A DNA stretch of 64,000 nt from Squalus acanthias (lineage: Eukaryota). The first letter of the stretch is position 1, and the number at the start of each line of letters is the position of its first letter. Under the pieces are notes generated by a model, which was not told the DNA's origin, did no database searches, and was given only the letters and a program-made list of their open reading frames with translations. A program made the translations under genes and the position numbers. Location of the stretch: positions 19,904,001-19,968,000 of the forward strand of contig CM059432.1 in the NCBI GenBank assembly GCA_030390025.1, written 5' to 3'. Positions 1 through 39,368 of the stretch are shown here, piece after piece.

Positions 1-429
1 ACCTAAATTGTTGTATGCCAAATACAATAGACGACTGCGTGTTTAATTACAGCTTCATGTCACAAAAATGTTGTATCATTTGCGCGTCACATCATCTCGG
101 TGAAATCAAGGCCTCGGTGTTCCAGCTCTTCTCCCCCCCACCTTCCCCCGGTGACAAATACTGTATTTAACCACATCAGGAGCAGCCAGAGAATTGGCCG
201 AGAATGCTGTTTCTTCTCAACTGTTCCTGTGCCAAAAATAAAATGACCAGAAAAATCTGGAATAACCCATCCGCCAAAAATAGAATGTGCAGGAAGTGAA
301 GTAGACATAAAGGTGTCATGTGCGCCCCATAAATTTACCCCCTTCCATCTTCTCTGCTGAAGATGCTGATTCATGCTGAGGCATTGTTCCACGGGTTGCC
401 AGCACTTTGACTAAATGGACAATATCTCG

Positions 430-582
430 CATAAGCCTGGATTGTGACCGATGGCTGTGGAGAGCATGACCAAAGAACCCAATGATATCCTCACCTGATA
501 TTTGTGCATACCCAGCAGGAGTCTCTGGATGGTGTGCAGGAGTGGGAATACTGGCTGATTTTTTTTAATGGCTCATAAGCAT
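430..582 (-). mobile_element. Old tRNA-derived SINE (AmnSINE2-like), 3' part, split by a CR1
   Basis: Reverse complement contains AAAATCAGCCAG...TCCAGAGACTCCTGCTGG; similar to copies at 11340 and 55880; continues at 2455. Confidence 0.55.
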
Positions 583-588
583 TGAGGC

Positions 589-2448
589 TACTGTTACTGT
601 ACAAGATAAGAGCGCACGAGGTTGGGGGTAATATATTGGCATGGATAGGGAAGTGGCTAACTAACAGAAAACAGAGAGTTGGGATAAATGGGTTATTTTC
701 CGGTTGGCAACCAGTAACTAGTGGGGTGCCAAAGGGATCAGTGCTGGGGCCTCAACTATTTACAATCTATATTAATGACTTGGATGAAGGGACCGAGTGT
801 ACTGTAGCCAAATTTGCTGATGATACAAAGATAGGTGGGTTAGCAAGTTGTGAGGAGGACACAAAGGGCTCGATTTTCCAAGCCCCGTGGAGGTGGGTTT
901 GGAGGCGGGAGTGGTGGGAAAATTGCAGATTCAGGGGGCACGTACCCATCCCGCCCCCAACCCGCCTCCATGCCAATGTCCCAGGAGGCGGGTACCCGAC
1001 CTGTGCTGGGAGCCGCCTCCCCGAGGCGGGAAGGGGATTAGTGCCAATTAACTGCCTGTTAACAGGTAGTTAACAGGCAGTTTTTTGGCTAATCCCTATT
1101 TTTAGCCCTGAAGTGTGGGCTGCCCGACGGCTCCAAACCACGGCAAGTTATCGAGGCGGACCGTCGGTCTGCAAGGCTTGGAGGGGTTGAGATGTCCAGT
1201 GTACAGGTGAGTGATGGGTGCATGAGTGCAGAGGTAAGTGCGTTTGGTGTGTGTAAAGTGTTTTAATAAGTTTTACTTACCTTTACTTTCTCCTCCAGGC
1301 TTCCTCCCTTCAGGTCTCGGGAGTCCCTCAGCTCACCGGCACAGAAAGCAGAATGGCCGCTGAGCTGTCAAAAGCTGCAGCCTTTGCTTTCTGGTCTGGA
1401 CAGCTCTCTAACTGAGTCTGAGTAGAAGGACTCAAGTTAGAAGACAGATTGTCAGTGTTTGACAGCTTCACAGAGCTGGGTTGGCCACAAATCGATGGAG
1501 GCGGGACTACAACTCAAAAAGTGGGAGTCCCGCCTCCATCACGTCCCCATTGACAAAATCCAGCCCAAAGAGTCTGCAAAGGGATATAGATAGGTTAAGC
1601 GAGTGGGCAAAAATTTGGCAGATGGAGTATAATGTGGGAAAATGTGAGATTATCCACTTTGGAAGGAAGAATAAAAAAGCAAATTATTATTTAAATGGTG
1701 TGAGACTACAAAATGCTGCGGTACAAAGGGATCTGGGGGTCCTAGTACATGAAACACAAAAAGTTAGCATGCAGGTAAGCAAGTAATTAGGAAGGCTAAT
1801 GGAATGTTGGCCATTATTGCAAGGGGTATGGAGTATAAAAGTAGGGAAGTTTTGATGCAACTTTACAGGGCGCTGGTGAGACCGCACCTGGAGTACTGCG
1901 TACAGTTTTGGTCTCCATATTTAAGGAAGGATATACTTGCATTGGAGACAGTGCAGAGAAGGTTCACAAGGTTGATTCCTGGGATGAAGGGGTTGACGTA
2001 TGACGAAAGGTTGAGCAGGTTGGGCCTATACTCATTGGAGTTTAGAAGAATGAGAGGTGATCTTATTGAAACATATAAGATTCTGAGGGGGATTGACAGG
2101 GTGGATGCTGAGAGGATGTTTCCCCTCGTGGGGGAATCTAGAACTAGGGGGCATAGTTTCAGAATAAGGGGTCGCCCATTTAAGACGGAGATGAGGAGGA
2201 ATTTCTTCTCTCAGAGGGTCGTGAATCTTTGGAATTCTCTACCCCAGAGAGCTGTGGAGTCAGAGTCACTGAATATATTCAAGGCTGAGATAGACAGACA
2301 TTTGAACTACAAGGGAGTCAAGGGGTATGGGGAGAGAGCGGGAACGTGGTGTTGAGGCCAAGATTGGATCAGCCATGATCTTATTGAATGGCGGAGCAGG
2401 CTCGAGGGGCCGATCGGCCTACTCCTGCTCCTGTTTCTTATGTTCTTA
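589..2448 (+). mobile_element. 5'-truncated CR1 LINE (RT C-terminus and 3' UTR), interrupted by a MITE
   Basis: [26 protein letters not shown] and WNSLP motifs; TTCTTATG tail; TSD TGAGGC at 583-588 and 2449-2454. Confidence 0.93.
866..1566. mobile_element. PIF/Harbinger-type non-autonomous DNA transposon (701 bp)
   Basis: TIRs GGGCTCGATTTT / AAAATCCAGCCC; 3-bp TSD AAA; removing it restores CR1 EEDTKSLQRDIDRL; related copy at 59515-60290. Confidence 0.88.
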
Positions 2449-2454
2449 TGAGGC

Positions 2455-2610
2455 AAATTGAAGCACCCCAACTTGAGTGGCCCACCTCAACTGTTGGCCA
2501 GGCTGAGATCAGCTTAAGCTCAACACCTACCGCAAACGAAACCTGGGACCATCCTGATCTTTATGGTTCAGTATCACAATGAGTCGTCCCTTTAACCACT
2601 GGGTCACACT
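2455..2610 (-). mobile_element. Old tRNA-derived SINE (AmnSINE2-like), 5' part
   Basis: GGCTGAGATCAGCT motif (reverse complement AGCTGATCTCAGCC); joins 430-582 across the CR1 TSD TGAGGC. Confidence 0.55.
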
Positions 2611-2782
2611 TGGGCAGCCTGCCTCACATTTATACCAGGCAATTACACCAAGACCGTAGCATGCTGCAATATAACAAGAAATCAAGTACTAAAACAGGGG
2701 CAATTCAGACCCAGTATCTAAAACACTACAAACTAGCTATTAGCATTTGTTTCATTTAATATCAATACGCATTAGGTGAAAT

Positions 2783-2942
2783 CCAATCGCAAAATACTGC
2801 GGATGCTGGAAGTCTGAAATAACCACAGAAAATGCTGGCAACACTCAGCAGGTCAGGCAGCATCTGCGGAGAGAGAAGCAGTTCCTCTCTCCACGGATGC
2901 TGCCTGACCTGCTGAGTGTTTCCAGCATTTTCTGTGGTTATT
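2783..2942. mobile_element. Palindromic Penelope-like terminal-repeat insertion
   Basis: Inverted arms of ~60 bp (AATAACCACAGAAAATGCTGG... / ...CCAGCATTTTCTGTGGTTATT); TSD GCATTAG(G)TGAAAT; same repeat terminates the GIY-YIG element at 31776-35873. Confidence 0.8.
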
Positions 2943-3170
2943 GCATTAGTGAAATGATTGAACTGACAGGGCTCTGGAAACAAAGTGTCTCTCTTCAAAT
3001 CTGTTCAGTTACTTCTCCTCCCTCAATCAGATGGCAAACTGCTACATCTGATTCAGCCGATGGCCCTCATGCCCCTCTCCAATTATGCAGTCAGATTGCC
3101 ATCTCTATTAAAGTACCAGGAAATAAAAAAATTTTTAAATTTCAACTTCAAAAATGACTACAACAAAGCA

Positions 3171-3345
3171 TGATGTGGAGATGTAGGGAAAGATTTGAAT
3201 AGATTTTGTCTGTGTTTAAATTGTGAATTCTGGGAGATTCTCTCACTGCTAACTTACGTGAGGAAGGAGCGACAGCTCCGAAAGCTTGTAAAATTAAATA
3301 AATCTGTTGGACTATAACCTGGTGTTGTGCGACTTCTCATTTTTG
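3171..3345 (+). mobile_element. Penelope-like 3' fragment with a degenerate hammerhead motif
   Basis: 12-bp TSD TACAACAAAGCA (3159-3170, 3346-3357); near-identical to the 3' end of the GIY-YIG-bearing copy at 38727-39186. Confidence 0.85.
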
Positions 3346-3759
3346 TACAACAAAGCACACAGCAATATTCTGTGTCGCCAGTTGCTGTGGGCTCTCAGTG
3401 CTGTTGGCTAACGTGCTGCAATTGGGGTTTGAAGCTGGCAAGTCACTTGGTGACAGCTTGCATTACAGAGTGAGAGAGACTAGGCCTGTTACAAGGAACT
3501 TTTAAATGATTAAGCTAACCCGATATGAATGCAGAATGGGATGAATGCTCTCCTCTTTTAGCTTTCTGCAAGTCATAGACCGGAGAGACAGAATACAAAC
3601 AACAACTTGATAGATTGCATTTAAATGCCATGGATATAAAACCTCTCATCTCGTGGATGAGTTATTCCACATCTGTCTCCCCCTGTTACGATGTCAAGCA
3701 GTTTACAAAAATAAAATGTTAAATTTGTTATTTTATCATGCTGTACGCAGGAGTGTTGC

Positions 3760-4835
3760 ATAGGAACAGCAGTAGGCCATTCAGAACCCTTCTTCGCTGA
3801 TCTGTACCTCAACTCCATTTACCCACCTTCTCTCCACATCACCTTGATTACCCGTACCTGACACGAATCTATTGATCTCAGTCTGCAGCGTTTCAATTGA
3901 CCCAGCATTCACAGATCTTTTTGGGGAGCAAGTTCCAGATTTCCACTACCCTTTGTGTGAAAAAGTGCGTCCCTCAATCATTTTAACCATGTCAATTAGA
4001 TCACCCCTCAACCTTCGACAAACCACGTTCATGCGGCTTTCCTCATATTTTAACCCTTTTCATCCCCGGTACCATTCTGGAGAATCAGCGCTATACCCAC
4101 TCCAAGGTCAATCTATCTTTCCTGAGGTGCAGAGCCCAAAACTGAACATAGTAGTCCAGATGGGGTCTGACCAAGGCTATAGAACTGAAGCATCACTTCC
4201 TCATTTTTGTATCCCAGCCTCCTTGAGATCAAGGCCAACATTCCATTAGCCTTTTTGATTTCTTTTTGTACCTGTGCACTAGCTTTTCCTTATTTCTGTA
4301 CGTGGACACTTAAATCCCTTCACTCCTCCACAGCTCCTAGTCTCTCACCATTGAGAAAATGTTTTGATTTGTCTTTCTTGGATCCAGATTGAATGACCTT
4401 ACACTTACCCACTTTGAACTCCATCTGCCATAGTTTTCACACTCACTAAGGCTGTCTATATCCCTTTGTAACTTCCTGCTCCCATGTACACAACCTGGTG
4501 TGTCTCCCAACTTAGTGTCATCTACAAACTTGGATATACAACGCTCCACTCACACTTCCAAGTCATTAATATATGGTGAAAAGCTGAGGCCCCAGTACAA
4601 ATCCCTGGGGAACACCACTTGTGACATCCCTCCAATCATGGAACATTCTCTTTATCTGTACTCTCTGTCTCCTGCTTCACAATCCATTACCAACCCATGT
4701 CATAAACCTACCTCCAATTCTGTGCACTTTCATTTTTGCCAATAATCTCTTGTGCAGAAACTTACCAAATACCTAGAAAAGTCAATTAGTTTAGACAGAC
4801 ATGACCTACCCTTCACAAATGTATGCTGACACTCT
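3760..4835 (-). mobile_element. Degenerate CR1 LINE
   Basis: ISKFVDDTKLG and KLQRDIDSLSE remnants; CR1 3' UTR at the left end; many frameshifts. Confidence 0.8.
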
Positions 4836-5396
4836 TTGGTCAGATCATACTTGACCAAGTGCAGCAGTGTAAAACACAGCACATTGACATATAATATAGA
4901 CACTGGTATTTTAACTCAGTATGACAACCCAGTGAAAAACAGTACTATAAGTAGGATACCACACAGTGTACAGTATTACAGCCACGCAAATGACCTCCCT
5001 TGCCATTGCTCATACACAAAAGTAAAACTAAACCTTTTCTGTCTGCTTGTTTGTTTCATACTCTAATTCTTTCTGTCTATCTTTTTTGTCTTCTATTTCT
5101 CTGGAGTAAACTTCTGTTATGACTAGATTGAGCAGGCACTACTAACAAGCAGTGGTTAATCTGCTAGCATGGGTCCTGCACGTGGTATTTTTGAGGGCAT
5201 TCAGAGTAATAACTATAATGGATTGCTGAGAACTAGATGTGCAACTGCACTGAATAAATATAACATTTTTAACATTGTGCTAAATGTAACATATTTTTAA
5301 TGTTGTGGTAAATTATCTTCAGTTAGTATTAAAATCACCAGAAGGTATTTATAACATTCTTATCAGAAACACGCTAACAGGCAAGAAGGACACTAT

Positions 5397-6168
5397 GGGC
5401 TGGATTTTGATACTGGGGCGGGTTGGGGTCGTGTCATCCGCATTTCGTGTTATCCACCCGACTGCATTTGGATGTGGGAGATTGATGCAATTTTCACTTA
5501 ATTGGGCAATTGAGTTCCAGCATATGGGAACCCATGAACCAATTAGTGGTTTCAGTCTAAAAGTCGCCTCTGATGATGTCATCATTGCTGCTGCATTGCA
5601 GGTCAGGTCAGAGACTGCCTGGCTTTTGCTGTGAGAGGACCTGGATGCAAAATGAGCAGCAGCAGCGAGAGAGAGAGAGAGAGAGCAATAGAGAGAGAGA
5701 GAGAGAGAGCGAGCAATAGAGAGAGAGAATGAATTTTTTTTGCATCCAGGTCCTCTCACAGCAAAGGCCAGGCAGTCTCTGAAGACATTCAATGCAGCAG
5801 CATCAGAGGCGACTACTGCTACCTTCATCACATCTCCGTTGTAATAGTGGACCTGCAGCTGATAGTCAGCTATCCACTTGTGCTCCCACCAGGTTTCACT
5901 GGCGTGTTTCAGATCAGGCGTGCTTCACGTGGGAAAAGGGTTAAACTAGCTAAAACATTTCAAAATGGCATTACAGAGCCAATTCAGGGCTTGTTAAGGG
6001 CTTTAATGGCCTCTCTCGCCTCTTGGAGACGGGACCACCGCACACGATTTCATCAAAATTGCGTGGAGGCGGAATGGAGGCGGGATCGGGTCCGCCCGCC
6101 ACTTTTCGCAATTTTAACCCCCCACACACCTCCAAACCCGCCTCCACGGGTCTATGAAAATCCAGCCC
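5397..6168. mobile_element. Harbinger-type MITE (772 bp) with internal (GA)n
   Basis: Perfect TIRs GGGCTGGATTTT / AAAATCCAGCCC; TSD TAT/TAT; second copy at 62503-63208. Confidence 0.9.
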
Positions 6169-6171
6169 TAT

Positions 6172-6660
6172 ATGTCCAAGTCAGCATGATGTATAACTTG
6201 GAGGGGAACTTGGAGGTCATGGTGCTTCCAATCTACTGCTGCCCTTGTTCTTCTTGGTGGGAGAGGTTGTGGAGCTGGGAGGTGCTGCCCAAGTTTGTTT
6301 GGTGCGTTCCTTTAGTGCATCCTGTAGATGGTACCCGAGTACCAATTGCAGTCACTGTGTGCCAGTGACAGGAGCACTGATTGAGGTGTGAAGCTTCTGG
6401 AGTGTTTTTGCCATTACAGCCCTTCAGCCAAGTGATGAGTATTCCATCACATCCCTTCCATGAACTTTGTAGATGGTAGAGAAGCTTTGAGGAATCAGAG
6501 GTAAGCCGCCTGTCACAGAGTGTTCTCTGCCCTACTCTTGCAGCCGCAATGTTGATACGGTTGGCCAAGTTAAATTTCTGGTTAATGGTGACCCGCTGGA
6601 CATTGATGACATTGATGTTGGGGGTCTCAGTGCTTACTGTGCCATTCAAGGTTCAGGGGG
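6172..6660 (-). mobile_element. Old non-LTR retrotransposon fragment (same family as 20308-20620)
   Basis: ACTTGGAGGGGAACTTGGAGGT motif is the reverse complement of the family core at 20390-20410. Confidence 0.65.
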
Positions 6661-6785
6661 AGTGGGTTACTTATATATAGATCTATGCGTTTCCTATGCT
6701 TCCCTTTCAGTTTGGCACAGCTGGGAATATTCTCACCTCCAAGTCAAAAGGCTGTGGCTTTCCCACTCCAGAACCTGAGCACATT

Positions 6786-7543
6786 TGTCCAAAATTTGCT
6801 GTTAAAATAACAGTGAAGCTAATAGCCTTCACCATTATTTTTGTGAAAATGCCACAGCAACTTCAGATGAGAGCAGATGCGCGATTAAATGCAGAAATCG
6901 AGAAGCTGTTGTCGGAGATGTGCCGCTCCGCCATTAGCATCGCAAAAACGGCATCTTGCTGCCTGGCTCCCTATTCAAATGCATTGAGCAGCGTTAAGTT
7001 CCTGTACTTGCGTGGAAGATATGAAGCAAACTCGCCACGGAAAGTTAAGTCAAGTCATTTCAAATCTAAGTACTCTTTTAACAATGTGATAAGTGTTAAT
7101 TACTGCCAGTCAACCACTCTGCCACTGGAAATTAACTATTACAAGCGTGGAGTCTCATTCCTTCAGGTTTCAATGGTTGTTGGAGTTTTTTCTTAAATTA
7201 ATGTTTTTTAAAACTTTTTCTTTCTCTCTTTTTTCTCTCTCTCTTAATCCAATCTTTTTTTATTTCTCTTTCTGTACCTGATTTGACATTGAATTCACCA
7301 TTCTAACTTACACTTCCTTCTCAGTCCTTGTGCTGTTAATTTCACAGTGCTTTAATCTGATTGGTTAAGGAGAAACACAGTTGCTTGCCCTGCACTCAGA
7401 TCCCAGATGCCCTGTAGAGGGCGCCACACCATTTCCATCTCGCACTTCCAGCAACTTGCAGAGCAAATTATCGCTGACATTAAACGGGCAAGGGCAACTT
7501 TAACTAACAGCGTTAGTTGCCCTGCCACAGGAAATTTTGCGCC
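6786..7543. mobile_element. Harbinger-type MITE inserted into a tRNA/Deu SINE
   Basis: TIR-like ends TGTCCAAAATTTGCTG / CAGGAAATTTTGCGCC; flanks rejoin as SINE GAGCACA(T)...ATCTAGGCTGACAC. Confidence 0.72.
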
Positions 7544-8351
7544 AATATCTAGGCTGACACTCTAGCAAAGCACTGAGGGAATGTGGCAATGTTGGACAGG
7601 CCATCCTTTGGATTGGATATTAGGTAGATGCAAGTTACAAAATTGGGGATTTCCATTCAATGAAAACTGATTGTAATGCTCAGTTGCTAACCTGGCTTGT
7701 CTCTTTAAAGTAAGGATGTCATTGAGCAAATTGGTACCGACATAAGTATTGTGACGAATGGAGGGCTAAAGGCTAGACAGTTGTGAGTCCGAAAGTGTTG
7801 TTGTAAGTGACTTGGGGGAGAAGTTATTTTTTTGCTCACCCCTTTTTCAGATACATTGTACACCATCCAACTCCATTACAGAGACATTCGCTCCTCCTCC
7901 AACCTTTGCAATCCACACTGGCACTTTGTTCCCTTGTCCCTTCATTTTACCTTGACACTCTTCTTCCATCCATTGTTCAAGTTGACGCTATTCTCTCTCT
8001 CCCCTCACCTAATTCAACCTGGCTCTCAGACCTGAGGAGGGTCCCGGTACAAGCTCCCACACGGCTTTGCAGGTGGCTCATGTACAATGCAGCAGGGATA
8101 TTGCCTGCTTCATTATTTACATATGACCAATGAGCCTGCGTCTATTGCATGCTTGAGCCCAGCCCCATATTCCACATCTCCCTATGTAACAAGTCTCTGC
8201 TCCCTTTATCCAATCATTTTCACCCAGGGATTGGGCGTTCACTGGGAGCAAAGATTAGGAAAAATTAGGCCCTCTGTCTTGGGCTCAGTCCAAAGAGACA
8301 ATGGAGAACAAATGTGGCACAAATGTGGAGAGAGATTGACATGTTTCAAAT

Positions 8352-9590
8352 CATAGGATTACATTACATAGGATATATGACACAGAAACAGGCCATTTGG
8401 TCCAACCAGTCCATGCCGGTGTTTATGCTCCACTTGAGACCCCTCCCGTCTTGCCTCATCTAAATCTATCAGCATAACCCTCTATTCTCTTCTCCCTCAT
8501 ATGTTTGTCCAGCCTCCCCTTAAATGCATCCCTACTATTCGCTTCAACCACTCCCTGTGGTAGCGAGTTCCACATTCTCACCACTCTTTGGGTAAAGAAG
8601 TTTCTTCTGAATTCCCTATTGGATTTCTTGGTGACTATCTTATATTGATGGCCTCTAGTTATGCTCTTCCCCACAAGTGGAAACATTCTCTCTGTATCCA
8701 CTCAATCAAAATCTTTTATAATTTTAAAGACCTCTATTAGGTCACCCCTCAGCCTTCTTTTTTCAAGAGAAAGGAGACCCAGCCTGTTCATCCTTTCCTG
8801 ATATGTATACCCTCGCATTTCTGGTATCATCCTTGCAAATCTTCTCTACACCCTCTCCAGTGCCTCTATATTCTTTTTATAATATGGCGACCAGAACTGT
8901 ACACAGTACTCCAAGTGTGGTCTAACCAAGGTTCGATACAGGTTTAGCATAACCTCCCTACTTTCCAATAATATCCCTCTAGAAATAAACCCTAGTGCTT
9001 GGTTTGCATTTTTAATGGTCTTGCTAACCTGCGTCACAACTTTTAGTGATTTGTGTATTTGTACTCCGAGATCCCTTTGTTCCTCTACCCCACCTAGACT
9101 CGCACCCTCCAAGTAATAAGTGACCTCCGTATTCTTCCTACCAAAATATAATACCTCACATTTGTCTGTGTTGAACTTCATTTTGCCAATTATATGCCCA
9201 TTCTGCAAATTTATTAATGTCCTTCTGTAATTTGTTGCAGTCCTCCTCAGTATTGACTATCCCCCCCAATTTGGTATCATCCGCAAATTTAGAAATTGTG
9301 TTTTTGATTCCAAAGTCTAAATCGTTAATATAAATTGTGAACAGCAGTGGTCCCCAGCACTGATCCTTGTGGAACACCACTACCCACCTTCTGCCACTGT
9401 GAATAGCTACCCTTTACTCCCACTCTCTGCTTTCTGTCTTGAACCCAGCTAGCTATCCATTCTGCTACTTGTCCCCTGACTCTGCATTCTCTGACCTTAT
9501 TCATTAGTCTATTATGGGGTACCTTATCGAAGGCCTTTTGAAAATCTAGATAAATTACATCTACTGCATTATGATTGTCTACTCTCTGAC
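8352..9590 (-). mobile_element. 5'-truncated CR1 LINE
   Basis: [31 protein letters not shown] and WNSLP in several frames; same subfamily as 36616, 46790 and 56144. Confidence 0.92.
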
Positions 9591-10128
9591 CCATATACTG
9601 AAGTGAGGTACAATCATTTTAAATCATTTGCTTTTAACAAGCAAAATTGTTGCGTAGACCATGAAGTAAGAGAGCGGGTAAACTCTGGGACTATGAATGC
9701 GTAAACCAAGATGAATGCTTGTTAATTACAGTATTATTATTCTTGGGAATTCAGTTTTGAGATAATCCTACTTTAAAGGTATGCCCCAGAACACAATAAT
9801 TACTTGCCTCGTAGTGCAGATGAAGGGTTGAGGGGATCCCCTTCCAGTGCAGTCGTGTAGTTCACTTTCAGGTCAATTGGTAGAACTCTTGCCTCGGAGT
9901 CAAAAGTCCACAGGTTATAACCCCACACCAGGACTTGATCATGTAAACCTGGCTGACACTTCAGCGCAGTACTGGGCAAATGCCGCATTGCTGAATGAAT
10001 CATCCTTCATTTGAGACATTAAACAAGGCCCAGTAGTTCAGGTGGTCGCTAAAGATCCCATGGCACTATTCAAAGAAAAGCAGACGTTCTCCTGGCCAAT
10101 AGTGCGCCCTCAACCAACTCCATCAGAA

Positions 10129-10216
10129 GTGAGAAGTCGCACAACACCAGGTTATAGTCCAACAGCTTTATTTGAAATCACAAGCTTTCGGAGCGCTGCT
10201 CCTTCATCAGGTGAAG
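10129..10216 (-). mobile_element. 88-bp Penelope-like mini-insertion
   Basis: 10-bp TSD TCCATCAGAA (10119-10128, 10217-10226); tail TGTTGGACTATAACCTGGTGTTGTGCGACTTCTCA shared with the 3171 and 38727 copies. Confidence 0.88.
10178..10214 (-). ncRNA. Minimal type-I hammerhead ribozyme motif (intact core)
   Basis: Minus strand TCAC-CTGATGA-A-GGAGC-AGC-GCTCC-GAAA-GCTT-GTGA: stem I TCAC/GTGA, CUGANGA, 5-bp stem II, GAAA, palindromic AGCU stem III, predicted cleavage triplet CUU. Confidence 0.78.
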
Positions 10217-11339
10217 TCCATCAGAAACAGATTAACTGGCCATTTGTCTCATTACTGTTTGTGGGATTTTGCAGTGCGCACATCAAAGCAATTCACTGTA
10301 TGTGAAGTGGCGAGAGATGTGATAAGGCCATATAAATGAGGTGTTTCCTTTTTCTCTTTCTAGTTAGTGTTGAATAGTTTAGTCAGGTTGCATACAATTT
10401 TGAAAAAAAAATTCAAGTCACCGTTTGATAAAGTATTCCAAATTCTGAGTGAAGACTAAAAGAAAGCAGAAGATAATCTGCAATCAGTCTTCAAACAGAC
10501 TAAAGCTACTGAAACTAGACTTGAAGCTCCTCTGAAATGGATGAACATAAGGCTGCACGGGGGAGCTCTGTAACTAGGATTACGTGGGATTATGTCAACA
10601 ATTAATTACTTTAAAAGATGGAGCTGCCATCTGTCTTAAGGTAAATATTTATCAATCGTATCACTCACTTCCATCCTTCTTTAAAGAGTTAAGCTGTACA
10701 TCCAAGAGCTGACAGCACAAGAGTGGAGCCACACCGCGAGTTTTGTTTATTTTGATATCCAGCTAATTTCACGGCAAATCTTTCTCTTCTGACATGAATC
10801 ATATCCTTTCACATGTGGCAGTAAATCAGTGAATCGGAAGCGGGTGGCGGTAGCAGTTGTGTTGTGACACGGAGCTGTAATGTGTTTTAAGAATAATGGT
10901 TCCTATTACTACTGTCAGGGACTAAAACGCCACTCTTCAATCTCCGCCTTCACAACCAGCCAGGTACAAACATAAGCTCGGTTGATGAAGGAAATAGTGT
11001 TCCACATGTTGCAGTGGGTCGTTTGTTAGTAGTGAGGTGTGAGATGAACTTTTTTTTTCAATGCATTCCTTTTCTGCGGATGCGCGCTGGTCACAATGAG
11101 GAATAACCCTGCTGGGCAAGGAACACAATTTCTCCACTTTGTAGCCAGTCAGAGCAGCCAAGCAAGACCCACGTCACATGCGAGACGGGCCAGAAAATAT
11201 ATAGGCCGTCTGCCATGATCCTACTCCCAGGTCAGCACCGCCAACTGTATTAAGGCCACACTTCCATTCCCCACTATTTAGCATTCTAAATTTAATAACA
11301 CACGCATCAATTGCTAGCATTAACAGTTGGCAAGTATAC

Positions 11340-11460
11340 TTCCTGGTGTGGCACTGATAAAAACAAGCCAGGAACGTCGCAGATTCAATTCCCAGTCTGT
11401 GCCGAGTTAGCTGACCTCACCTGGGGAGACAGTAGGGGCGCTTTATTTAGCCTCAGGTTA
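11340..11460 (+). mobile_element. AmnSINE2-like SINE fragment
   Basis: GTCTGTGCCGAGTTAGCTGACCTCA...AGTAGGGGCGCT motif. Confidence 0.55.
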
Positions 11461-12059
11461 AGGAGATGACTAGATGCTTTTCCAGTGAGAGAAGAGATGA
11501 AGGAATATGGTACGAAGGCAGGTAGTTAGGGCTGAGATCAATCAAAAAACGGCAGACTTGTTAAGCCTCTTCCTAAAAATTGTTAGGTTCTTATTAATTG
11601 TCTTCCTAATATAGTGAAATTCTAGCTATGGTGAGCTGTTTTCATGGCAAATATGAATTCACTACAAAAGGTTCTGAATAGTTCAATACAACACTGAAAT
11701 GTGTGATTATTTGAATTAGTTTCTGGTTTGCAACTGCTCAGATTGCTTTCACTTGCATGGCAGAGGAGGGGAGTTCTTCTTTATGCGCTATTTCTGTCCT
11801 TTTTAAATCTTCTCCCATAATTCTAAGAGACCCATCAAAAAGAGAAGACGGCTTGAACAACAGGAATGAGTAAGGTGGGCCGAATGTCCTCTTCTCAAAC
11901 TTTCAATTAATTAATGGTCAAAATCCATGAGAAATGCTTTCTTTTCAAAATATGACTATACCCCTAGCATCTGCCTGAAATAAATATAGTCCTAAATATA
12001 TACAGCATCTGTTAGAAAATATTATCTATGTAGCAGTCTCTCAGAGAGCCACAATTTTT

Positions 12060-12385
12060 GTCTTAATCCCTTCTCTGCTCTGAACTCTCCCTCTTTGTAA
12101 CATCCCCCTAGCTCTGCACACCACCATCTCTCTGTTCACTGTCCCTCTCTCTCCCCAAATGCTCTCAGCTCTCTATTTATCGGCAGTCTCTCTATGTGTT
12201 GTTAACTCTATCCCTTTCTGTCTGTACTGTCCCTCAGCTCTGTAGTGTGCTGTCAGCTCTCTCTGCCTACAGTGTGTCTCTCTCTTCCACGCACGCTGTC
12301 CGTTTTCTATCTAGCCGCAGTATCGCTCTCTTCCTGTTTGCTGTCGGTTCTCCTTTCGACCTCTGGAGTGATCCTCTCCTTTTGC
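12060..12385. repeat. CT-rich low-complexity tract
   Basis: Dense CTCT/TCTC repeats. Confidence 0.6.
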
Positions 12386-12665
12386 CAGAAATACATACAA
12401 TAGTCTGAGTATGTCATTGGCAGTGTTGTTTCCTGGAATGGGGGTGGAGGGGGGCGGTGTCAAAGGTCAAAGGTTAGTCATGAGGTGCTCTTTGTTTAGT
12501 TGAGAAGCCTTGGTTGAATGAGGAGTTGAAGGCCCAGAGAGCAGGAGAGAACCAAGGATTAGAAGGGCAGGGGAAAAGACCAAGTATATATCACTGCCAT
12601 AATATTGTTCTCCAGCTATAAAGGTTGTAACATCGTGTGCCACCCAATCCCTTTGCAGAAAAATT

Positions 12666-13777
12666 GGCCCCGATATTAATGTAAAGGCGGCTTCCGAGCG
12701 AGGGGGGTGTGAAACCCGGAAGTCAAGTCAGCGGGTTTGATTCTCCGATTTCAGCTTGTTGCGGCAATACATTTTGACTTCGGGTTTCGCCTCTCCAAGC
12801 TGTGCAGTGGGTGTGATGCGTACCCACTATTTAAAAGGCCAATGCAGAAATGGAATCTGGAGGAGCCAGGCGGTGTTTAGCATGGATTCGCAAAGAGTAA
12901 GGCCAGCACCCAGATACAATGATGCTTCCCTAGAATTTCTGCTGGGTGCAGTCAGGAGCGGGGGTGGGGGGGGAAGGGGGGAATACTCTTCCTCAGCAAC
13001 ATCTGTCACTAAGAACGTGTGGTTGGAGGTGGCTGAGGTGGTGAGCAGCAGGAGCATTATGCCCCCGGGTCTTGGATGCCGTGCAGGAAGCAGTTTAATG
13101 ACCGAAGCAGGTCAGAAAAAGTGAGTACATTTGCTGGTTCACCTACATCCTGTGATTTAACCACCCTCCCCGCCCCTGCTCTCACTCCGTCTTGCCAAGC
13201 GTACTCCATCACATCACTCCTCACACCCAATTAAGTTTCAGCAGCACCCTGCCTTCACTTTCTATGCACTTCCTCATCTCCCCATGTACCCATCCGCCGC
13301 TGCCACTCACCCCAATCCTTACGTAATGAGATGCATCTGTCTGATAGTCACCCTCACCGAATTCACTGCTTCCATCGGGTGAATACGTGACCTTCAGTCA
13401 CTTACAGGTCTGCTTTTCCACCCCTTGTAGGAAAAGACAGCGCAAAATGCAAGGGAGAGGGAGAGGACTGAAGGTGGGCGGCCACAAATTGAGCAGCTAA
13501 CAGATGCAGAGGAGGCGGCCCTGGAGATAAGTGGCACATTTGCATCCCTCTCAATCGGAGATGGAGAGACAGAGAACGCGCAGATGGCTGGTGACAGAAT
13601 TACAAATATCTCTGACACACATGCTGACTTTATTTCATCAATGACTGAACTATGAGATGACTGAGTATGGAGATTGTCAAGATCATTACTTTGCCACCTA
13701 GTTCAATATTCTTCTATTTTTACTTCCCACCCGACTCCAATCCGTCCGTTCTTGGGTGTTAAAACTCCCCCCCCCCC
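12666..13777 (+). mobile_element. Harbinger transposon derivative carrying a spliced Myb/SANT-like gene relic
   Basis: Left end GGCCCCGATATT; right end GTTAAAACTCCCC; internal Myb-like exons. Confidence 0.72.
12882..13590 (+). pseudogene. Harbinger Myb/SANT-like (NAIF1/MSANTD-type) DNA-binding protein, two exons, frameshifted
   Basis: Exon 12882-13120 reads MDSQRVRPAPRYNDASLEFLLGAV...VWLEVAEVVSSRS...CRKQFND then |gtgagt; exon 13431-13590 follows ttgtag| and reads EKTAQNARERERTEGGRPQIEQLTDAEEAALEI...|gtgaca. Confidence 0.75.
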
Positions 13778-14353
13778 GCCATTATCTTTCTAATTGCCAC
13801 ACGCAAGAGGAAAGACAACACAGATGGCATGGCACGACCATTTTTTGCTCCTCTTAGTAGAAACATATTAGCTATTTTAAAAATAACATAACAGTAATAG
13901 AAGGAGATTTGCAACCCAGGGCACAATCCCATCTCATCTCACAATACACAGTGGATGAGACACGGCTCACAGTAAGATCTATCTTTCATTTCACAAGTGA
14001 GTTGTTCAGCTTCTTCTCATGAGTAAAATAAAAGTCAGGTTACAGTACTTTGCTGACACCACATTCTTTGTTTTTATTGCGTGTTAACTAAAGGAAACTG
14101 AAGAGAAAATGTTTCAGGAGAAAGTAAAGCAAGCACAGATGCTGATGGCATATCTGGAAAAAAATCCCCACTTGCCCACAAACTCCTTTAAACTTCCTCT
14201 CTTGCTCCTTTAAAGCTCTTCTTCCTCCCTCCATCTGCACTGTGTGGAAATCAAGACTTACTGCATCGTCTTACTCTAGCTGACTCGAGATAGACAGCTC
14301 AGTATAAGCTGTTTTTATCACTGGAGTAAATATTGTTCTTTCATAGAATCAAA

Positions 14354-15253
14354 GAAGTAGAAATTCGGCTCCGCAGCACCCGGTTTTTCGGCGCTACGGG
14401 TGCCATTTTATATCTAAAATGGCGTCCGCACCGCGCACGCACACTCCTGGTGCCACACCGGATGCCATCTTGGTCAAGGCCAAACAAGAGGCGTCCTTTA
14501 CCCACGTCGGAAGCAGGCACTGGGCCATTAACATATGCAAATAAGGGGCTTAGCGCCTGCTTCTGCTCCCTCTTGCAACTTTGGTTTGTGCCTGAGGCAG
14601 CCAGCACCAGTGCAGATTGCCGCTGGGAAAACCAACGCTAAACAGCAAGGAATTTTAAAAAAGGTAGTTATTACCATAATCACCGCCGCTCCCGGTCCCG
14701 AGATCTCTGACCTCACCCCACCGACTCTAACCTCCAGGCCACGCCCCCCACTCCCCCAACCAATCTCCCCCGCGGCCCCGACTTCCTACTAACCCCTGAC
14801 AGCACACCCGACCCCCCCCAACAATACTCCAGACCGCCGCGACCTTCCTACCTGACCCCCGACAGCCCTCCAATCGGATTCCGAGGCCGAGCCGTTCCTC
14901 CTCCAGACCCCCGCGATCTCCCTATCCGACCCCGGACTGCCCTCCGATCGGATTCCAAGGCCGAGCCGTTCCTCCTCCAGACCCCCCGCGATCTCCCTAT
15001 CCGACCCCGGACTGCCCTCCGATCGGATTCCAAGGCCGAGCCGTTCCTCCTCCAGACCCCCGCGATCTAAACCACTCAATTACCTGAAAATTGCCACACG
15101 AACCTGTCCAGGCTCCTACAGCTGCGCCCTCGACATGATAATGAGGTCAAAGGCCCAAACTCCAGAGCTACTCGGACCTCCCCATTTGACCGCAGGCTGT
15201 TATACCTCTGCGGGTAAGGTGCCCAAAAATGGATGCTACCGAATTTCTAGGTC
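14354..15253. mobile_element. Harbinger-type MITE (900 bp) inserted in a CR1 ATAGAATC tail
   Basis: TIRs GAAGTAGAAATTCGG / CCGAATTTCTAGGTC; flanks AAA/ATA. Confidence 0.8.
14867..15068. repeat. Tandem repeat, 74-75 bp unit, about 2.7 copies
   Basis: Unit CCTCCGATCGGATTCCAAGGCCGAGCCGTTCCTCCTCCAGACCCCCGCGATCTCCCTATCCGACCCCGGACTGC, nearly identical copies. Confidence 0.92.
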
Positions 15254-15785
15254 ATAGAATCTTACAGAAGGAAACCATTCGGCCCATCATGCCTGTGCTG
15301 GCTCCCAGCTCTTTCCCAATAGCCGTGCGATTTTCTCCCCTTCAAGTATTTATCCAATTCCCTTTTGAAAGTTACTCCTGAATTTGCTTCCACTAGCCTT
15401 TCAGGCAGTGCATTGCAGATCATAATAACTTGTTGCGTAAAAAAAATTCTCTTCAACTCACCTTTATTATCTTAAATCTGTGTCCTCTGGTTACCGACCC
15501 TTCTGCCGGTGCAAACAGTTTCTCCTTATTTACCCTGTCAAGATCCTTCATGATTTTGAATGCCTCTGTTAAATCTCCCCTCAACCAATGTTCCCTCTAT
15601 TTTTTGGGGGGCTGTGCGGCCCCTTTAACGGGCTGCGCGGCCCATTCAAAATTCCGCGCATGCGTGTTTTTTCCATTTAATTCGGGACCTCCAGACGCCG
15701 CGCGGCCGCGCAGCTTAAAGAGAACATTGCCCTCGACCTTCTCTGCTCTGAGGAGAACAATGCCAGCTTCTCCAGCCTCTCCATT
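15254..15785 (-). mobile_element. CR1 3' fragment
   Basis: FFTQQVIMICNALPERLVEA; CATAGAAT tail. Confidence 0.85.
15586..15729. mobile_element. 144-bp hAT-type MITE
   Basis: TIRs CAATGTTCCCT / AGAGAACATTG; 8-bp TSD CCCTCAAC/CCCTCGAC. Confidence 0.85.
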
Positions 15786-16713
15786 TTTTGAACAAGATTC
15801 AATATAAATTTTGAAAAAAGGGAAAATCTGAAACAAATGACAGAAAAATTATAGACATGCCATCAACAATGGTTCACATGAAAACGCTGGCAGTTCTTTT
15901 GGACGAGGGATTGGCGACCCAGACCATGATCCAGCTGGGTCCCTCGTTATGCCCAGGCTGGGAATTCCCTCGCCTGACCCAGTCTCCCCTGACATTTGGG
16001 GCAATGTTTGGGACAGACAGCGGGTCCACCTCAAATAAGTCCCGGGAAAGCTGCCAGCTAAAGCTGGGACGAGCATATCCAGGTCCTAGACCAAATTCTG
16101 GCCAGTTCACTGCACTTTTTGGCAGACGTACACTGGGAGTGCGGCCCAAAGTCCCGTGGATTTTTGGGTCCATTAAATCTGAGCAAATGAGGTGAAAGCA
16201 TGACAGAAATGCACATATAGTTTGCTCAATAGTGAAGCATGATGGACGGAACACATACTGTTTTTATTATATTATTAGTAGTAAACTTCCAGTGATGCCA
16301 CGGGTGATCTCCTAGCAAAATAATAGAAATGATGGGGCGGGGGGGGGGGGGGTGGGGGGGTGCGGTGTGAGAGGAAGAGAGCTGCCTATTTCTAATGAAA
16401 GAATTTGGACAGAAGTGTCCCTAAAATCAGTGAAGCAAGTGGGTTTTTTTTTTGATTGGCTCCTTAGCGCTTTCCTTACCCACTGCAGCTAGATAAAATA
16501 AAGAGCTACCACAGCTGCGTTAATTAAATCTGTTCCAGGAACAATTAAAAAAAAAAAAATTATTATTTTTATTTGTTTATGGGATGTGGGCGTCGCTGGC
16601 AAGGCCAGCATTTATTGCCCATCCCTAATTGCACTTGCTGATTTGATAGTCTCCGTACAAAGAAAACAAAAGGGAGGTGGCTATAATTACCCCTAAATGT
16701 GCTAAATGGACCT

Positions 16714-16873
16714 GGTCCTGAAATTTTCTCTGTGGGTGCAACCCGGTAGACTCAAAAATGCACCCATTCTGCCAATGTCAAGTTACACTCAAATTTCCTG
16801 CGAATCTCATTAGAATACGCCCGACTGTGAACCGGGCATAAATCAGCAGGAATCAGCGTAAACAATCAGGGCC
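16714..16873. mobile_element. Short Harbinger-like MITE
   Basis: Ends GGTCCTGAAAT / AATCAGGGCC. Confidence 0.5.
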
Positions 16874-17442
16874 TAAGGAAAGTGCTGAGCTCACCCCATA
16901 TATTTCTTCTTTAAATATGAACGTTAAAGTTTCAACTCATTCAACCATCATTGATGCACGTTAGGCACCAATGTTCAAGAACCTGCAACCGGGGAAGCTT
17001 TCCCATTTTTAACATGCGACTTATACTGATGCCATAAAAATCCATTCAAAGAGAGAGAGAGAATACAGAACACGTGTCAGTGAAGGTAAACCATGAAAAC
17101 AAACGCTCAAAACATTGCATCGAAACACCAGAAAAAAGACCTTCTTTCCTGCTGCACCTGAAAATCTGGTCGAAATTTGAAGAGAGGGCAACTGCAGGAA
17201 ACTTGTGTCTAGGGCTCTGTAACTTGGGGGAGGGGCTGGTATTATGATGCGGCGATGTGCTCGGGTGGAAGGCTCAATAGATTGAGGAGATTTGGGCGTT
17301 TTGTATGTAAATCGCACCCAAAATTCCGTGATCTTTTAGGCCGCGTGTTTGACTTGCGTCCAGATTACACCCAAGAAATTCCAGGCACTGGTAACACTGT
17401 ATTTTATTTATTCAGGACTAACTTCCGGTGGTTGAAGGCCAA

Positions 17443-17635
17443 AACCACCAAAGCAGATTATCTGGTCATTATCACATTGCTGTTTGTGGGAGCTTGCTGT
17501 GCGCAAATTGACTGCTGCGTTTCCTACATTACAACAGTGACTACACTTCAAAAGTACTTCACTGGCTGTAAAGCTTTTTGAGACGTCCTGAGGTGGTGAA
17601 AGACACTGTATAAAAGCAAATCTTTCTCTCTTTCT
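17443..17635 (+). mobile_element. DeuSINE 3' half
   Basis: CAGATTATCTGGTCATTATCACATTGCTGTTTGTGGGAGCTTGCTGTGCGCAAATTG and an L2-like tail. Confidence 0.8.
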
Positions 17636-17740
17636 AAATCCCACTTGCCAAACAGTGAAGACCTTTTCAAAAAAAACAATCCATGTATTTATGGATTCAA
17701 TTGATTATTTGATGGTTGTGGTATTATTTTTGCATTGACC

Positions 17741-19672
17741 ATAGAAACATAGAAACATAGAAAATAGGTACAGGAGTAGACCATTCGGTCCTTCGAGCCT
17801 GCACCGCCATTCAATGCGTTCATGGCTGAACATGCTACCTCAGTACCCCATTCCTGCTTTCTCGCCATACCCCTTGATCCCCTTAGTTGTGAGTGTTATA
17901 TCTAACTCCCTTTTGAATATATTTAGCGAACTGGCCTCAACAACCTTCTGTGGAAGAGAATTCCATAGATTCACCACTCTCTGGGTGAAGAAGTTCCTCC
18001 TCAGCTCAGTCCTAAATGGCTTCCCCTTAATCCTTAGACTGTGACCCTGGTTCTAGTTTTCCCTACCATTGGGAACATTCTGCCCGCATCTAATTTGTCT
18101 AAACCAGTCAGGATTTTAAATGTCTCTATAAGATCCCCCTCATTCTTCTGAACTCAGAGGATACAAGTTCAGTTGACCCAATCTTTCTTGATATGTCAGT
18201 CCGGCATCCCAGGAATCAATCTAGTGAACCTTCGCTGCACTCCCTCAATAGCAAGAATGTCCTTCCTTAAGTTAGGAGACCAAAAACTGCGCACAATACT
18301 CCAGTGTGGCCTCACCAAGGCCCTGTACAACTGTAGCATCACCTCCCTACTCCTGTACTCAAATCCCCTTGCTATGAAGGCCATCATTCCGTTTGCTTTC
18401 TTGACTGCCTGCTGCACTTGCATTCCCACCTTCAGTGACTGATGTACCATGACGCCCAGGTCTCGTTGCACGTCCCCTTTCCCTAATCTGCCACCATTCA
18501 GGTAATAGTCCGCCTCTCTATTTTTACCACCAAAGTGGATAACCTCACATTTATCCACATTGTACTTCATCTGCCATACATTTGCCCATTCACCCAACCT
18601 GTCCAAGTCACTCTGTAGCCTCCTAGCATCCTCCTCATTGTTCACACTGCCTCCCAATTTAGTGTCATCCGCAAATTTGGAGATATTACATTTAATCCTT
18701 CGTCCAAATCATTAATATATAATGTAAACAGCTGGGTCCCAGCACCGAACCCTGCGGTACCCCGCTGGTCACTGCCTGCCATTTGAAAAGTACCATTTAC
18801 TCCTACTCTTTGTTTCCTGTGTGCCAACCAGTTCTCAATCCACGTCAACACATTACCCCCAATCCCATGTGCTTTAACTTTGCTCACCAATCTCTTGTGT
18901 GGGACCTTGTCGAAGGCCTTCTGAAAGTCCAAATACACCACATCTACTGGTTCCCCCCTGTCCACCCTATTGGAAACATCCTCAAAAAATTCCAGAAGAT
19001 TTGTCAAGCATGATTTCCCTTTCACAAATCCATGCTGACTTGGACCTATCATGTCGCCACTTTCCAAATGGTCTGTTATGACATCTTTAATAATTGCTTC
19101 CATCATTTTACCACGACTGATGTCAGGCTGACCGGTCTATAATTCCCTGCTTTCTCCTCCCTCCTTTTTTAAAAAGGGGGTTACATTGGCCACCCTCCAC
19201 TCCATCGGAACTGATCCAGAGTCTAAGGAATGTTGGAAAATGATCGTCAATGCATCCACTATTTCCAAGGCCACCTCCTTAAGTACTCTGGGATGCAGAC
19301 CATCAGGCCCCGGGGATTTTTCAGCTTCAGTCCCATCAATTTCCCCAATACCTTTTCCCGACTAATAAGGATTTCCCTCAGCTCCTCCCTCTTACCAGAT
19401 CCTCTGACCCTTTTATTTCCGGCAGGTTGTGTGTGTCCTCCACAGTAAACACCGAACCAAAGTACTTGTTCAATTGATCTGCAATTTCCTTGTTCCCCAT
19501 TACGACTTCCCTGTTTCCGACTGCAGGGGACCTACGTTTGTTTTTACTAACCTTTTCTTTTTACATATTTATAGAAGCTTTTGCAGTCCATTTTAATGTT
19601 CTCTGCAAGCTTCCTTTCATATTTTATTTTCCCTGCCCTAATCAAACCCTTCGTCCTCCTCTGCTGAGTTTT
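17741..19672 (-). mobile_element. 5'-truncated CR1 LINE with many small indels
   Basis: SQHGFVKGKSCLTNLLEFF and YLDFQKAFDKVPH; (ATAGAAAC)n tail at 17741-17762. Confidence 0.93.
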
Positions 19673-20307
19673 GAAATAAGATGTAGCCATTAACTCCCTC
19701 CACCCACTGTTGCAATTAATAAGTATTTTCCAGATCTGAATGTTTGTTCTGTCCTATTTCATAATATTAAAACCACACAGAATTTTTATTTACTCAAGAA
19801 CTGACAATGCTCTTCTCAAGTCATCATTTTTGCTTTGAGATTTAAACTCACCATTGGAAACTCAACATTTAAGGGTTTGTGCAATGATATAATAAGTCTG
19901 GTGTCATGGGTTTATATAACTAGTTTAGTAGTGTTTATCAACTCGGGATTGGGGTGCTTTGTTCGTAGAAACCCTGGGGAGGCGGAATAGAGCTATCCTA
20001 TCTTGTTTGGTTTTACTCCTAATGAGCACCTTGCTATGTTGAGCTCCTACTTCCTACATTCCCATAAATATGTGGGACTACTGTTAGTTAGAGGGACGGA
20101 TATCTGATCACCACCTAAGGCTGGAAAAGTTCCAAGAGTCTGAGTGACTTGCCTGTCAGCCGAAACAAGAGCCACCTATTACTGTTTGGGTTTTCGCCCA
20201 ACATTTTTGTGTTCACAGCAAAAAGGATGTTTCCATCAACTGAAACCTGTGTCCTTATTTGTGCCATGTCTGGGATAACATGCTAGCATTAAAATGATCT
20301 ACAATTC

Positions 20308-31760: not shown

Positions 31761-31939
31761 TCGGGACATTGTGGAATAACAACAGAAAATGCTGGAAACA
31801 CGCAGCAGATCAGGCAGCATCGTGGAGAGAGAAACAGAGTTAATGTTTCAGGGCAATGATCCTTCGTCAGAACTGGAAAGAGTAACAGATTTTTAATCAA
31901 GTGTAGGGGCAGGGAAAGGGAGGAGGGGAGGAAAGAACA

Positions 31940-35175: not shown

Positions 35176-35850
35176 TTATAGTCTGAAATTGTTGAACTCG
35201 ATGTTAAGTTCAGAAGGCTGTAAAGTGCCTATTCGAAAGTTGAGGTGCTGTTCCTCGAGCTTACATTGAGCTTCATTGGAACAGTGTAAGAGGCCAAGGA
35301 TGGAGAGGCCAGAGTGGGAGTGGAGTGGAGAATTAAAGTGACAGGCTACCGGAAGCTCGGGGTCACGCTTATGGACTGAACGGAGGTGTTCCGCAAAGCG
35401 GTCACCCAATCTCCGTTTGGTCTCCCCAATGTAGAGGAGACCGCATCGTGAGCAGCGAATACAGTATACTAAATTGCAAGTAGTACAAGTAAATCGCTGT
35501 TTCACCTGGAAGGAGTGTTTGGGGCCCTGGACAGTGGGAAGGGTGGAGGTAAAAGGGCAGGTGTTGCATCTCCTGCACTTGCACGGGAAGGTGCCAGGCG
35601 AAGGGGAAGGGGTGTTGGATGTGATAGAGGAGTGGACCAGCGTGTCGGGGAGGGAGCGGTCCCTTCGGAATGCTGAAAGGGGAGGGGAGGGGAAGATGTG
35701 TTTGGTAGTGGGATCATGCTGGAGGTGGCAGAAATGGCGGAGGATGATCTGTTGAATGTGGAGGCTGGTGGGGTGAAAGGTGAGGACAAGGGGAACCCTA
35801 TCGTGGTTCCGGGAGGGAGGGGAAAGGGTGAGAGCAGAAGTGTGGGAAAT
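35176..35850 (-). pseudogene. Penelope GIY-YIG endonuclease domain (5'-truncated ORF)
   Basis: RVPLVLTFHP, PCKCRRCNTC, NLVYCIRCSRCGLLYIGETKRRLGDRFAEH, HFN, LNIEF. Confidence 0.88.
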
Positions 35851-39186: not shown

Positions 39187-39368
39187 CAGTTGTGTTCAGA
39201 CATAGGATTCACATTTAATTTCTCTTTGCCTATTTAAGGCCACAGCTGAATTACAATTCTTTCTCCAATTTTCTACAATAACTTTTCGGGCCTCAATACG
39301 CTTATGCTTAAGAAACCTGAAGCGGGCCTACCCTCAGGACCCAGGTCTGAGCCGATCCAAAGGGGATG

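What the first reader, a model, noticed from the sequence alone, without database searches (positions are those of the whole stretch)
10129..10216. 88-bp TSD-flanked mini-retroelement that is essentially an intact hammerhead ribozyme plus tail
Seen: a perfect 10-bp TSD brackets 88 bp whose minus strand reads TCAC-CUGAUGA-A-GGAGC-AGC-GCUCC-GAAA-GCUU-GUGA, with all catalytic core bases and both stems intact and a palindromic AGCU in place of a closed stem III. Established: Penelope-like elements carry minimal type-I hammerheads that need to dimerise through such a palindrome. Inference: it is on the same strand as the TSNARE1-like exons, so if the transcript extends this far the pre-mRNA would carry a potentially cleavable ribozyme. 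It could be a heavily 5'-truncated Penelope copy or a stand-alone ~90-nt mobile RNA.
Basis: partly seen in the sequence, partly recalled or inferred. Interest (0 to 1): 0.7.

Follow-up and report, generated by a model that had tools for sequence, protein, structure and literature searches.

The report
Penelope start-site run-off hammerhead stub
This 88-base insertion is a short copy of the non-coding front end of a very abundant Penelope-type jumping gene, including its tiny hammerhead-ribozyme motif, and was likely made when the element's copying enzyme started inside its own RNA and ran off the RNA's start, so it is probably a dead-end by-product and not a self-spreading ribozyme element.

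Summary
88 bp sit between a 10-bp duplication, inside an older SINE whose paralogues show one site. The minus strand carries a textbook minimal PLE hammerhead.

It is not a stand-alone element. It matches the 5' UTR (positions -4 to +84) of a full-length, 891-aa Neptune/Nematis-type Penelope-like element at 86 of 89 bases. Its 3' 37-mer occurs 30,147 times in this genome.

Family 5' ends are not scattered: 58 of 124 lie at -8 to +4, at an Inr-like motif 30 nt behind a conserved TATA-like box, often after an extra G. They do not pile up at the ribozyme cut site. 77 of 78 short doublets pair one +84 arm with one +123 'tail' arm.

Best reading: internal priming, then run-off at the capped RNA start, with this copy a rare single-arm outcome (0 of 265 sampled arms looked the same). 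The start site, the cap and ribozyme activity are inferred, not shown. Whether the copy lies in the syntaxin-like gene's transcript is unresolved. The scan reported the same run-off reading before in other genomes.

The parts
10119..10128 (+). Target-site duplication, copy at the element's 3' end (10 bp; 11 of 12 bases match if extended to the family's usual 12)
   Evidence: empty sites in paralogous SINEs
10129..10216 (-). 88-bp insert = positions +84 to -3 of a Penelope-like element's 5' UTR/pLTR end (position 0 = 10213; position -4 = 10217 is shared with the duplication)
   Evidence: 86 of 89 identical to full-length copy L196; 88 of 89 to L061
10178..10214 (-). Minimal type I hammerhead motif: stem I 10214-10211 with 10181-10178; core 10210-10204; bulged A 10203; stem II 10202-10190; GAAA 10189-10186; AGCU palindrome 10186-10183; predicted cut between 10182 and 10181
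   Evidence: sequence; matches the min-HHR features in PMC4209133; 143 of 143 cells paired across 16 picked variants
10129..10177 (-). Rest of the 5' UTR up to the first of the family's two 3' end points (+84), the inferred first internal reverse-transcription start
   Evidence: 3' ends cluster at +82 to +93 and +117 to +129; 30,147 exact matches of the last 37 nt
10217..10226 (+). Target-site duplication, copy at the element's 5' end; its first two bases read on the minus strand as the Inr-like A (-4) preceded by a G not templated by the parent
9880..10328 (+). Older host SINE (about 72% identical to its paralogues) interrupted by the insert; resemblance to shark Deu-domain SINEs is recalled, not tested

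Best explanation
The insert is a copy of the first 88-89 non-coding bases of a Penelope-like retrotransposon, likely made by target-primed reverse transcription that started at the element's first internal start site (+84) and ran off the inferred capped 5' end of the element's RNA just before the hammerhead. Shown: parentage, the position 5' of the ORF (ATG at +123), two fixed 3' end points, a sharp 5' boundary near -4, a TATA-like box at -34 and an Inr-like motif with its A at -4. Inferred: the endonuclease makes a staggered cut of about 12 nt, and each cut strand primes on the element's RNA, one at +84 and one at +123. Both cDNAs run to the RNA start and are joined head to head, giving the usual short+tail doublet. 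Here only the +84 arm was kept, and its 3' end annealed to the target by 2-4 nt of microhomology, leaving a 10-bp duplication. Without the upstream box, the tail or a partner hammerhead, the copy is probably a dead end and its ribozyme probably silent.
For: Parent L196 has pLTR-ORF-pLTR anatomy, an open 891-aa ORF and 86/89 identity to the insert. The ATG lies at +123/+124 in all 4 of 15 loci that retained the pLTR-ORF junction. 5' ends: 58 of 124 arms of the 3'-anchored sample lie at -8 to +4 against 6 at -34 to -9 (p 1.5e-21); counted as distinct junction types over both samples, 73 against 15 (p 1.2e-21). One TATAWAWR match (-34) and an Inr match (A at -4) lie in the 220 nt scanned, with one other Inr match at -126; the TATA-like box is kept across subfamilies whose spacer differs. 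The same box / 20 bp / TCACT layout was noted as a putative promoter in rotifer PLE pLTRs (PMC3846280, passage). A G precedes -4 in 18 of 24 arms (p 3e-4 against 0.38) and in 11 of 17 distinct junction types (p 0.023); such G's are attributed to cap copying for L1/SVA (PMC3287187, passages). 77 of 78 doublets have exactly one short and one tail arm, and 69 of 78 have a duplication of 8 bp or more, mostly 12-13. An anole PLE protein cuts both strands and starts reverse transcription at two internal sites that bracket the tail (PMC11167929, main text).
Against: No direct start-site data: only contigs were available and they cannot show RNA ends. The extra G is confounded, because in most junctions it can also be read as the last base of the partner arm, and G is also common before -5 and -6 (3 of 4 and 5 of 7). 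Some junctions recur at different sites, so arms are not fully independent. Drosophila Penelope uses a TATA-less internal promoter (PMC2377424, passages), so the TATA reading does not hold for all PLEs. The in vitro work is on a Poseidon-clade element and found no difference in start site between strands. The samples come from contig C1 only, and set B was selected for an intact hammerhead 36-mer.
Confidence: 0.72

Rival explanations
1. Ordinary 5' truncation of the 3' end of a long read-through transcript, with a hotspot caused by the polymerase stalling or by microhomology at the hammerhead's upstream edge.
For: The same 88 nt also form the 3' end of every long copy. 82 of 183 hammerhead-bearing arms continue past -34. 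Junctions often use short microhomologies. 5' truncation, inverted copies and the tail are standard PLE features (PMC8557442, passages).
Against: A stall would be expected where the enzyme meets a helix (+35 or +23), not after leaving it at -4 (inference). The edge coincides with the Inr-like A, 30 nt behind a conserved TATA-like box.
Confidence: 0.17
2. The copy derives from a secondarily mobilised non-autonomous doublet (a read-through hairpin RNA) and was cut short at the hairpin apex.
For: Three pairs of doublets share one junction but have different target duplications (L046/L048, with the tail on opposite arms; L055/L059; two in L083), so some doublets appear to be re-copied as units. 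The commonest junction recurs at 12 sampled loci.
Against: 73 distinct junction types at -8 to +4 show that most are made separately. The window copy has no trace of a second arm. This route also leaves open why the original doublets end at -4.
Confidence: 0.07
3. A stand-alone, retrozyme-like ~90-nt RNA that is processed by its own hammerhead and spread by PLE proteins.
For: The catalytic core is intact, the stems hold across variants with one compensatory change, and the 5' boundary is discrete.
Against: The 5' boundary lies 36 nt upstream of the predicted cut. Only 4 of 18 ends between +18 and +48 fall at +31 to +33 (p 0.09). There is no tandem array at this site. 0 of 265 sampled arms were single short arms with a clean duplication. 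The stems are not predicted in the 89-nt RNA.
Confidence: 0.04

Closest known systems
Endonuclease-positive Penelope-like elements, Neptune/Nematis type (PMC8557442; PMC3846280)
   Same: RT plus C-terminal GIY-YIG ORF with a CX2-5CxxC linker in the parent; pLTR with hammerhead; inverted adjacent copy; one-sided 30-40-bp tail; target duplication; TATA / 20 bp / TCACT motif
   Different: This copy is only the promoter-less 88-nt UTR piece, with one arm and no tail. In this family the 5' ends pile up at one point instead of being randomly truncated.
Minimal PLE hammerheads (min-HHR; Cervera and De la Pena 2014, PMC4209133)
   Same: [quoted passage not shown]
   Different: Stem II is 5 bp, against 7-8 bp in the Schistosoma examples. 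Activity was not tested here; the paper found no cleavage for a single motif and low cleavage for dimers.
Anolis PAc (Poseidon) internal initiation of reverse transcription (PMC11167929)
   Same: Two fixed 3' end points about 39 nt apart, downstream of the hammerhead, bracketing the tail
   Different: Different clade. Here the hammerhead and both end points lie in the 5' UTR and the tail ends at the ATG, whereas in PAc they lie inside the ORF start. The sections I read do not describe run-off stubs or strict short+tail pairing.
Non-LTR retrozymes (bioRxiv 10.64898/2026.07.22.740005; PMC7229834 seen as listing only)
   Same: Non-coding, type I hammerhead, derived from PLE pLTRs
   Different: Retrozymes are defined as head-to-tail tandems with a hammerhead in each unit. 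This is a single unit, and the family's pairs are head to head.

Membership tests
EN+ Penelope-like element (parent family) | Single ORF with RT domain | tested here: met
   891-aa open ORF in L196, YIDD at 532, Pfam RVT_1 E 1.1e-8
EN+ Penelope-like element (parent family) | C-terminal GIY-YIG endonuclease with cysteines between the two motifs | tested here: met
   Motif visible near the C-terminus. Pfam GIY-YIG E 2.4e-4 in L064, just under the curated cut-off; no hit for the matching L061 piece or for the full-length protein
EN+ Penelope-like element (parent family) | pLTRs, adjacent inverted copy, one-sided 30-40-bp tail, target duplication | tested here: met
   L196 and L061-L064 anatomy; 77 of 78 doublets short+tail
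Neptune or Nematis clade | CX2-5CxxC linker between RT and EN | tested here: met
   CX4CxxC at residue 753; definition from PMC8557442
Neptune or Nematis clade | RT phylogeny placing it in Neptune | not tested
   No named PLE reference proteins were fetched; Neptune is preferred because the preprint found Neptune and Poseidon to be the widespread vertebrate groups
Minimal PLE hammerhead | Core boxes, stems I and II, bulge after A9, G10.1-C11.1, palindromic stem III | tested here: met
   the 16 aligned rows were picked by me from 50 variants found with a pattern that requires the core
Minimal PLE hammerhead | Self-cleavage as a dimer | not testable with these tools
   Needs an in vitro assay; genomic ends at the cut site are not significantly enriched
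Rfam hammerhead families | Covariance-model match | tested here: not met
   No hammerhead family among the 3 matches at E<=10 in 9500-11000
Non-LTR retrozyme | At least two consecutive head-to-tail units, each with a hammerhead | tested here: not met
   Single unit; no tandem repeat here
Non-LTR retrozyme | Circular RNA from hammerhead processing | not testable with these tools
   Only contigs were available
Discrete non-autonomous mini-element (SINE-like) | Many copies with the same two ends, each flanked by a duplication | tested here: not met
   0 of 265 sampled arms were cleanly flanked single short arms; the sample is from contig C1 only

The most novel reading that the evidence does not exclude
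The genome is a mass record of the Penelope integration step. A dimeric enzyme primes both cut target strands on the same capped 5' UTR, one at +84 and one at +123, and both copies run off the RNA start. This would explain the head-to-head inverted repeats and the one-sided tail without an antisense template. It also places the hammerhead 3 nt behind the cap, where cleavage would remove the cap from the element's own mRNA. Some of the resulting doublets are then re-copied as non-autonomous palindromic units.
Probability: 0.45. Interest if true: 0.55.

Novelty: new member of a known kind. Interest (0 to 1): 0.3.

Why it matters
The single insertion is ordinary debris from a family with tens of thousands of copies. 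The family pattern matters more. The origin of inverted pLTRs and of the one-sided tail in Penelope-like elements is unsettled; PMC3846280 proposed self-priming on an antisense template. The strict short+tail pairing and the sharp boundary at a predicted start site make a sense-strand, double-priming model directly testable with an intact 891-aa ORF (L196). I did not find this run-off model in the paper searches. That library lacks most subscription journals, and I read no supplements (Fig. S2 of PMC11167929 may bear on it). The scan's own earlier notes report the run-off reading from other genomes, so it is not first seen here.

Tried and rejected
Rfam: no hammerhead hit. Run search: no RNA holder listed on record. 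Laying four probable-RNA contig sets on the pLTR-ORF junction and on window 1-20000 gave only repeat pile-up, with no start sites and no spliced joints; these say nothing for or against expression. Cleavage-site footprint: 4 of 18, p 0.09, not significant. A first ungapped end-calling was dropped because stem II loop variants stopped it at +18/+19; it was replaced by gapped alignment to 9 natural references. L081 looked like a twin of the window copy but is an internal junction of a partial tandem. Four arms at -4 and nine at -8 belonged to other subfamilies that keep the promoter and were reclassified before counting. Pfam scan of 126 of the window's 237 long frames found no syntaxin exon; PF14523 gave no hit in the window, while PF05739 did. 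The last, transmembrane exon of that gene was not found in window 1-40380 or the next 20 kb; two weak candidates near 27609 and 5778 were not accepted. Look-up of earlier findings by sequence returned nothing.

Full report
Observation. The window is G000:C8:19904001-19968000 of a 3.7-Gb genome; a shark-like host is my inference from recalled repeat families and was not tested. The 10-bp direct repeats at 10119-10128 and 10217-10226 and the 88 bp between them are as described. The minus strand has every min-hammerhead feature listed in PMC4209133 (I read parts 1-2 of 4): core boxes, a bulged A after position 9, a G10.1-C11.1 pair and a palindrome in place of stem III. A 10-bp repeat alone is weak evidence, since the window has 20 at 60-129 bp spacing. 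The host SINE gives a real test. Of 11 paralogues, 8 align with a 76-110-nt gap at this point, 2 more lack the insert on inspection, and L114 has an independent insertion of a sister subfamily at the same SINE position. Rfam finds no hammerhead, and the fold is not stronger than shuffles.

What it belongs to. An exact 36-mer across the hammerhead occurs 1,568 times and the last 37 nt occur 30,147 times; the reversed controls gave 0 in both. Long copies carry RT and GIY-YIG coding sequence upstream. L196 is a full-length copy with pLTR-ORF-pLTR anatomy, an open 891-aa ORF, a CX4CxxC linker at residue 753, an inverted arm and a target duplication. That linker marks the Neptune and Nematis clades (PMC8557442, passages); I built no tree. 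With position 0 at window 10213, the ATG is at +123 (4 of 15 loci kept this junction). The insert equals positions -4 to +84, with 86 of 89 bases identical to L196's 5' copy. It is therefore the 5' UTR piece of the element, which also forms the end of each pLTR.

Family anatomy. I called ends for 268 arms: 124 from loci anchored on the 3' 37-mer (first 11.4 Mb of C1; set A), 141 from loci anchored on the hammerhead 36-mer (90 of the 100 listed places; set B, biased towards intact hammerheads) and 3 in the window. The 3' ends fall in two groups, about +84 and about +123; the interval is the known 30-40-bp PLE tail. Of 78 short head-to-head doublets, 77 have one arm of each kind (p 2.6e-22 against 0.5), and 69 have a duplication of 8 bp or more, mostly 12-13. 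In set A, 58 of 124 5' ends lie at -8 to +4 and 6 at -34 to -9 (4.5 against 0.2 per base). Counting distinct junction types over both sets gives 73 against 15. Ends at the predicted cut site (+31 to +33) are 4 of 18 in the surrounding interval (p 0.09). None of the 265 sampled arms was a single short arm with a clean duplication like the window copy. One single tail arm (L086, +33 to +123) had a 12-bp duplication, and two single short arms (L091, L103) had none that was clean.

Why -4. The reference has one TATAWAWR match at -34 and an Inr match with its A at -4; the box is kept across subfamilies whose spacer differs. Arkhipova et al. noted the same box / 20 bp / TCACT layout as a putative promoter in rotifer pLTRs (PMC3846280, passages and Discussion). 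A G not present in the parent precedes -4 in 18 of 24 arms, in 11 of 17 distinct junction types (p 0.023) and in the window copy. For L1 and SVA such G's are attributed to copying of the cap (PMC3287187, two passages). Against this, the G can usually also be read as the partner arm's last base, it is common before -5 and -6 too, and Drosophila Penelope has a TATA-less internal promoter (PMC2377424, passages). No RNA data could map the start.

Mechanism. Frangieh et al. (PMC11167929; I read parts 1-2 of 4) showed that an anole PLE protein cuts both DNA strands and starts reverse transcription at two internal RNA sites that define the tail. They also found that its hammerhead cleaves only with protein and is not needed for insertion in vitro. 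Applied here, as inference: on an RNA that starts at -4, priming at +84 or +123 can copy only 88 or 127 nt before running off. Priming from both target strands gives the short+tail doublet. Long copies need a read-through RNA that reaches the downstream pLTR. The window copy kept only the +84 arm. Its flanks match at 11 of 12 bases if extended, which fits a 12-nt stagger closed by microhomology to leave 10 bp.

Ribozyme and host gene. The stems are predicted for the isolated core (about 0.9-1.0) and for the parent's -4 to +125 RNA (0.6-0.9). They are not predicted for the 89-nt insert (0.00) and only weakly in 300-nt flanking context (0.04-0.08; 0.4-0.5 with 100-nt flanks). Across 16 variants that I picked from 50, all 143 cells pair, with one compensatory change in stem I that is probably a single event. 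The motif thus looks maintained in the parent family, but a lone copy needs a partner, and single min-HHRs did not cleave in PMC4209133. SNARE-domain exons lie on the minus strand near 43403 and at 40452-40369, the latter ending in a splice donor.

A result against the simple picture. Three pairs of doublets share a junction but have different duplications. L046 and L048 share an asymmetric junction with the tail on opposite arms. Some doublets are therefore probably re-copied as units, which several earlier notes did not expect. This does not apply visibly to the window copy.

Verdict. The feature is real and its parts are known: a short insertion of an endonuclease-positive Penelope-like element with a minimal hammerhead. 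The run-off reading was in my notes before I saw that the scan had reached it in other genomes; those notes are unchecked and are not independent support. The bioRxiv retrozyme preprint was read as part 1 of 5 plus passages; no supplements were read. Interest 0.3.

Noticed in passing
L046, L048, L055, L059, L083 (G000:C1 2.9-7.6 Mb): Doublets with the same junction at different target duplications; in L046/L048 the tail is on opposite arms. Suggests that palindromic PLE stubs can be re-mobilised as non-autonomous units.
   Followed up: partly
L114 (G000:C3:177056303-177059551); L079, L091, L108, L046: An independent insertion of a sister subfamily at the same position of a paralogous SINE, and near-identical target duplications at four other loci, point to insertion hot spots inside other repeats.
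   Followed up: partly
L196:1563-4238 minus (G000:C28): Full-length element with an open 891-aa ORF; its 5' hammerhead has a core change in the GAAA box while the 3' copy is intact.
   Followed up: partly
window 43365-43442 (approximate) and 40369-40452, minus strand: Two SNARE-domain exons of a syntaxin-like gene; the final transmembrane exon was not located.
   Followed up: partly
window 3210-3350 and 38730-39195, plus strand: Two older copies of a sister PLE subfamily sharing about 150 nt, both with damaged hammerhead 5' boxes; the second has endonuclease-coding remnants upstream.
   Followed up: partly
window 31830-31880, minus strand: A second hammerhead-like motif from a different repeat family, at the edge of a 987-aa LINE ORF (31897-34860, plus strand, endonuclease and RT domains).
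   Followed up: no
window 35176-35991, minus strand: 271-aa frame with a weak GIY-YIG match (E 4e-4), probably another PLE remnant.
   Followed up: no
window 14827-15068: Tandem repeat of a 74-bp GC-rich unit, 3.3 copies.
   Followed up: no
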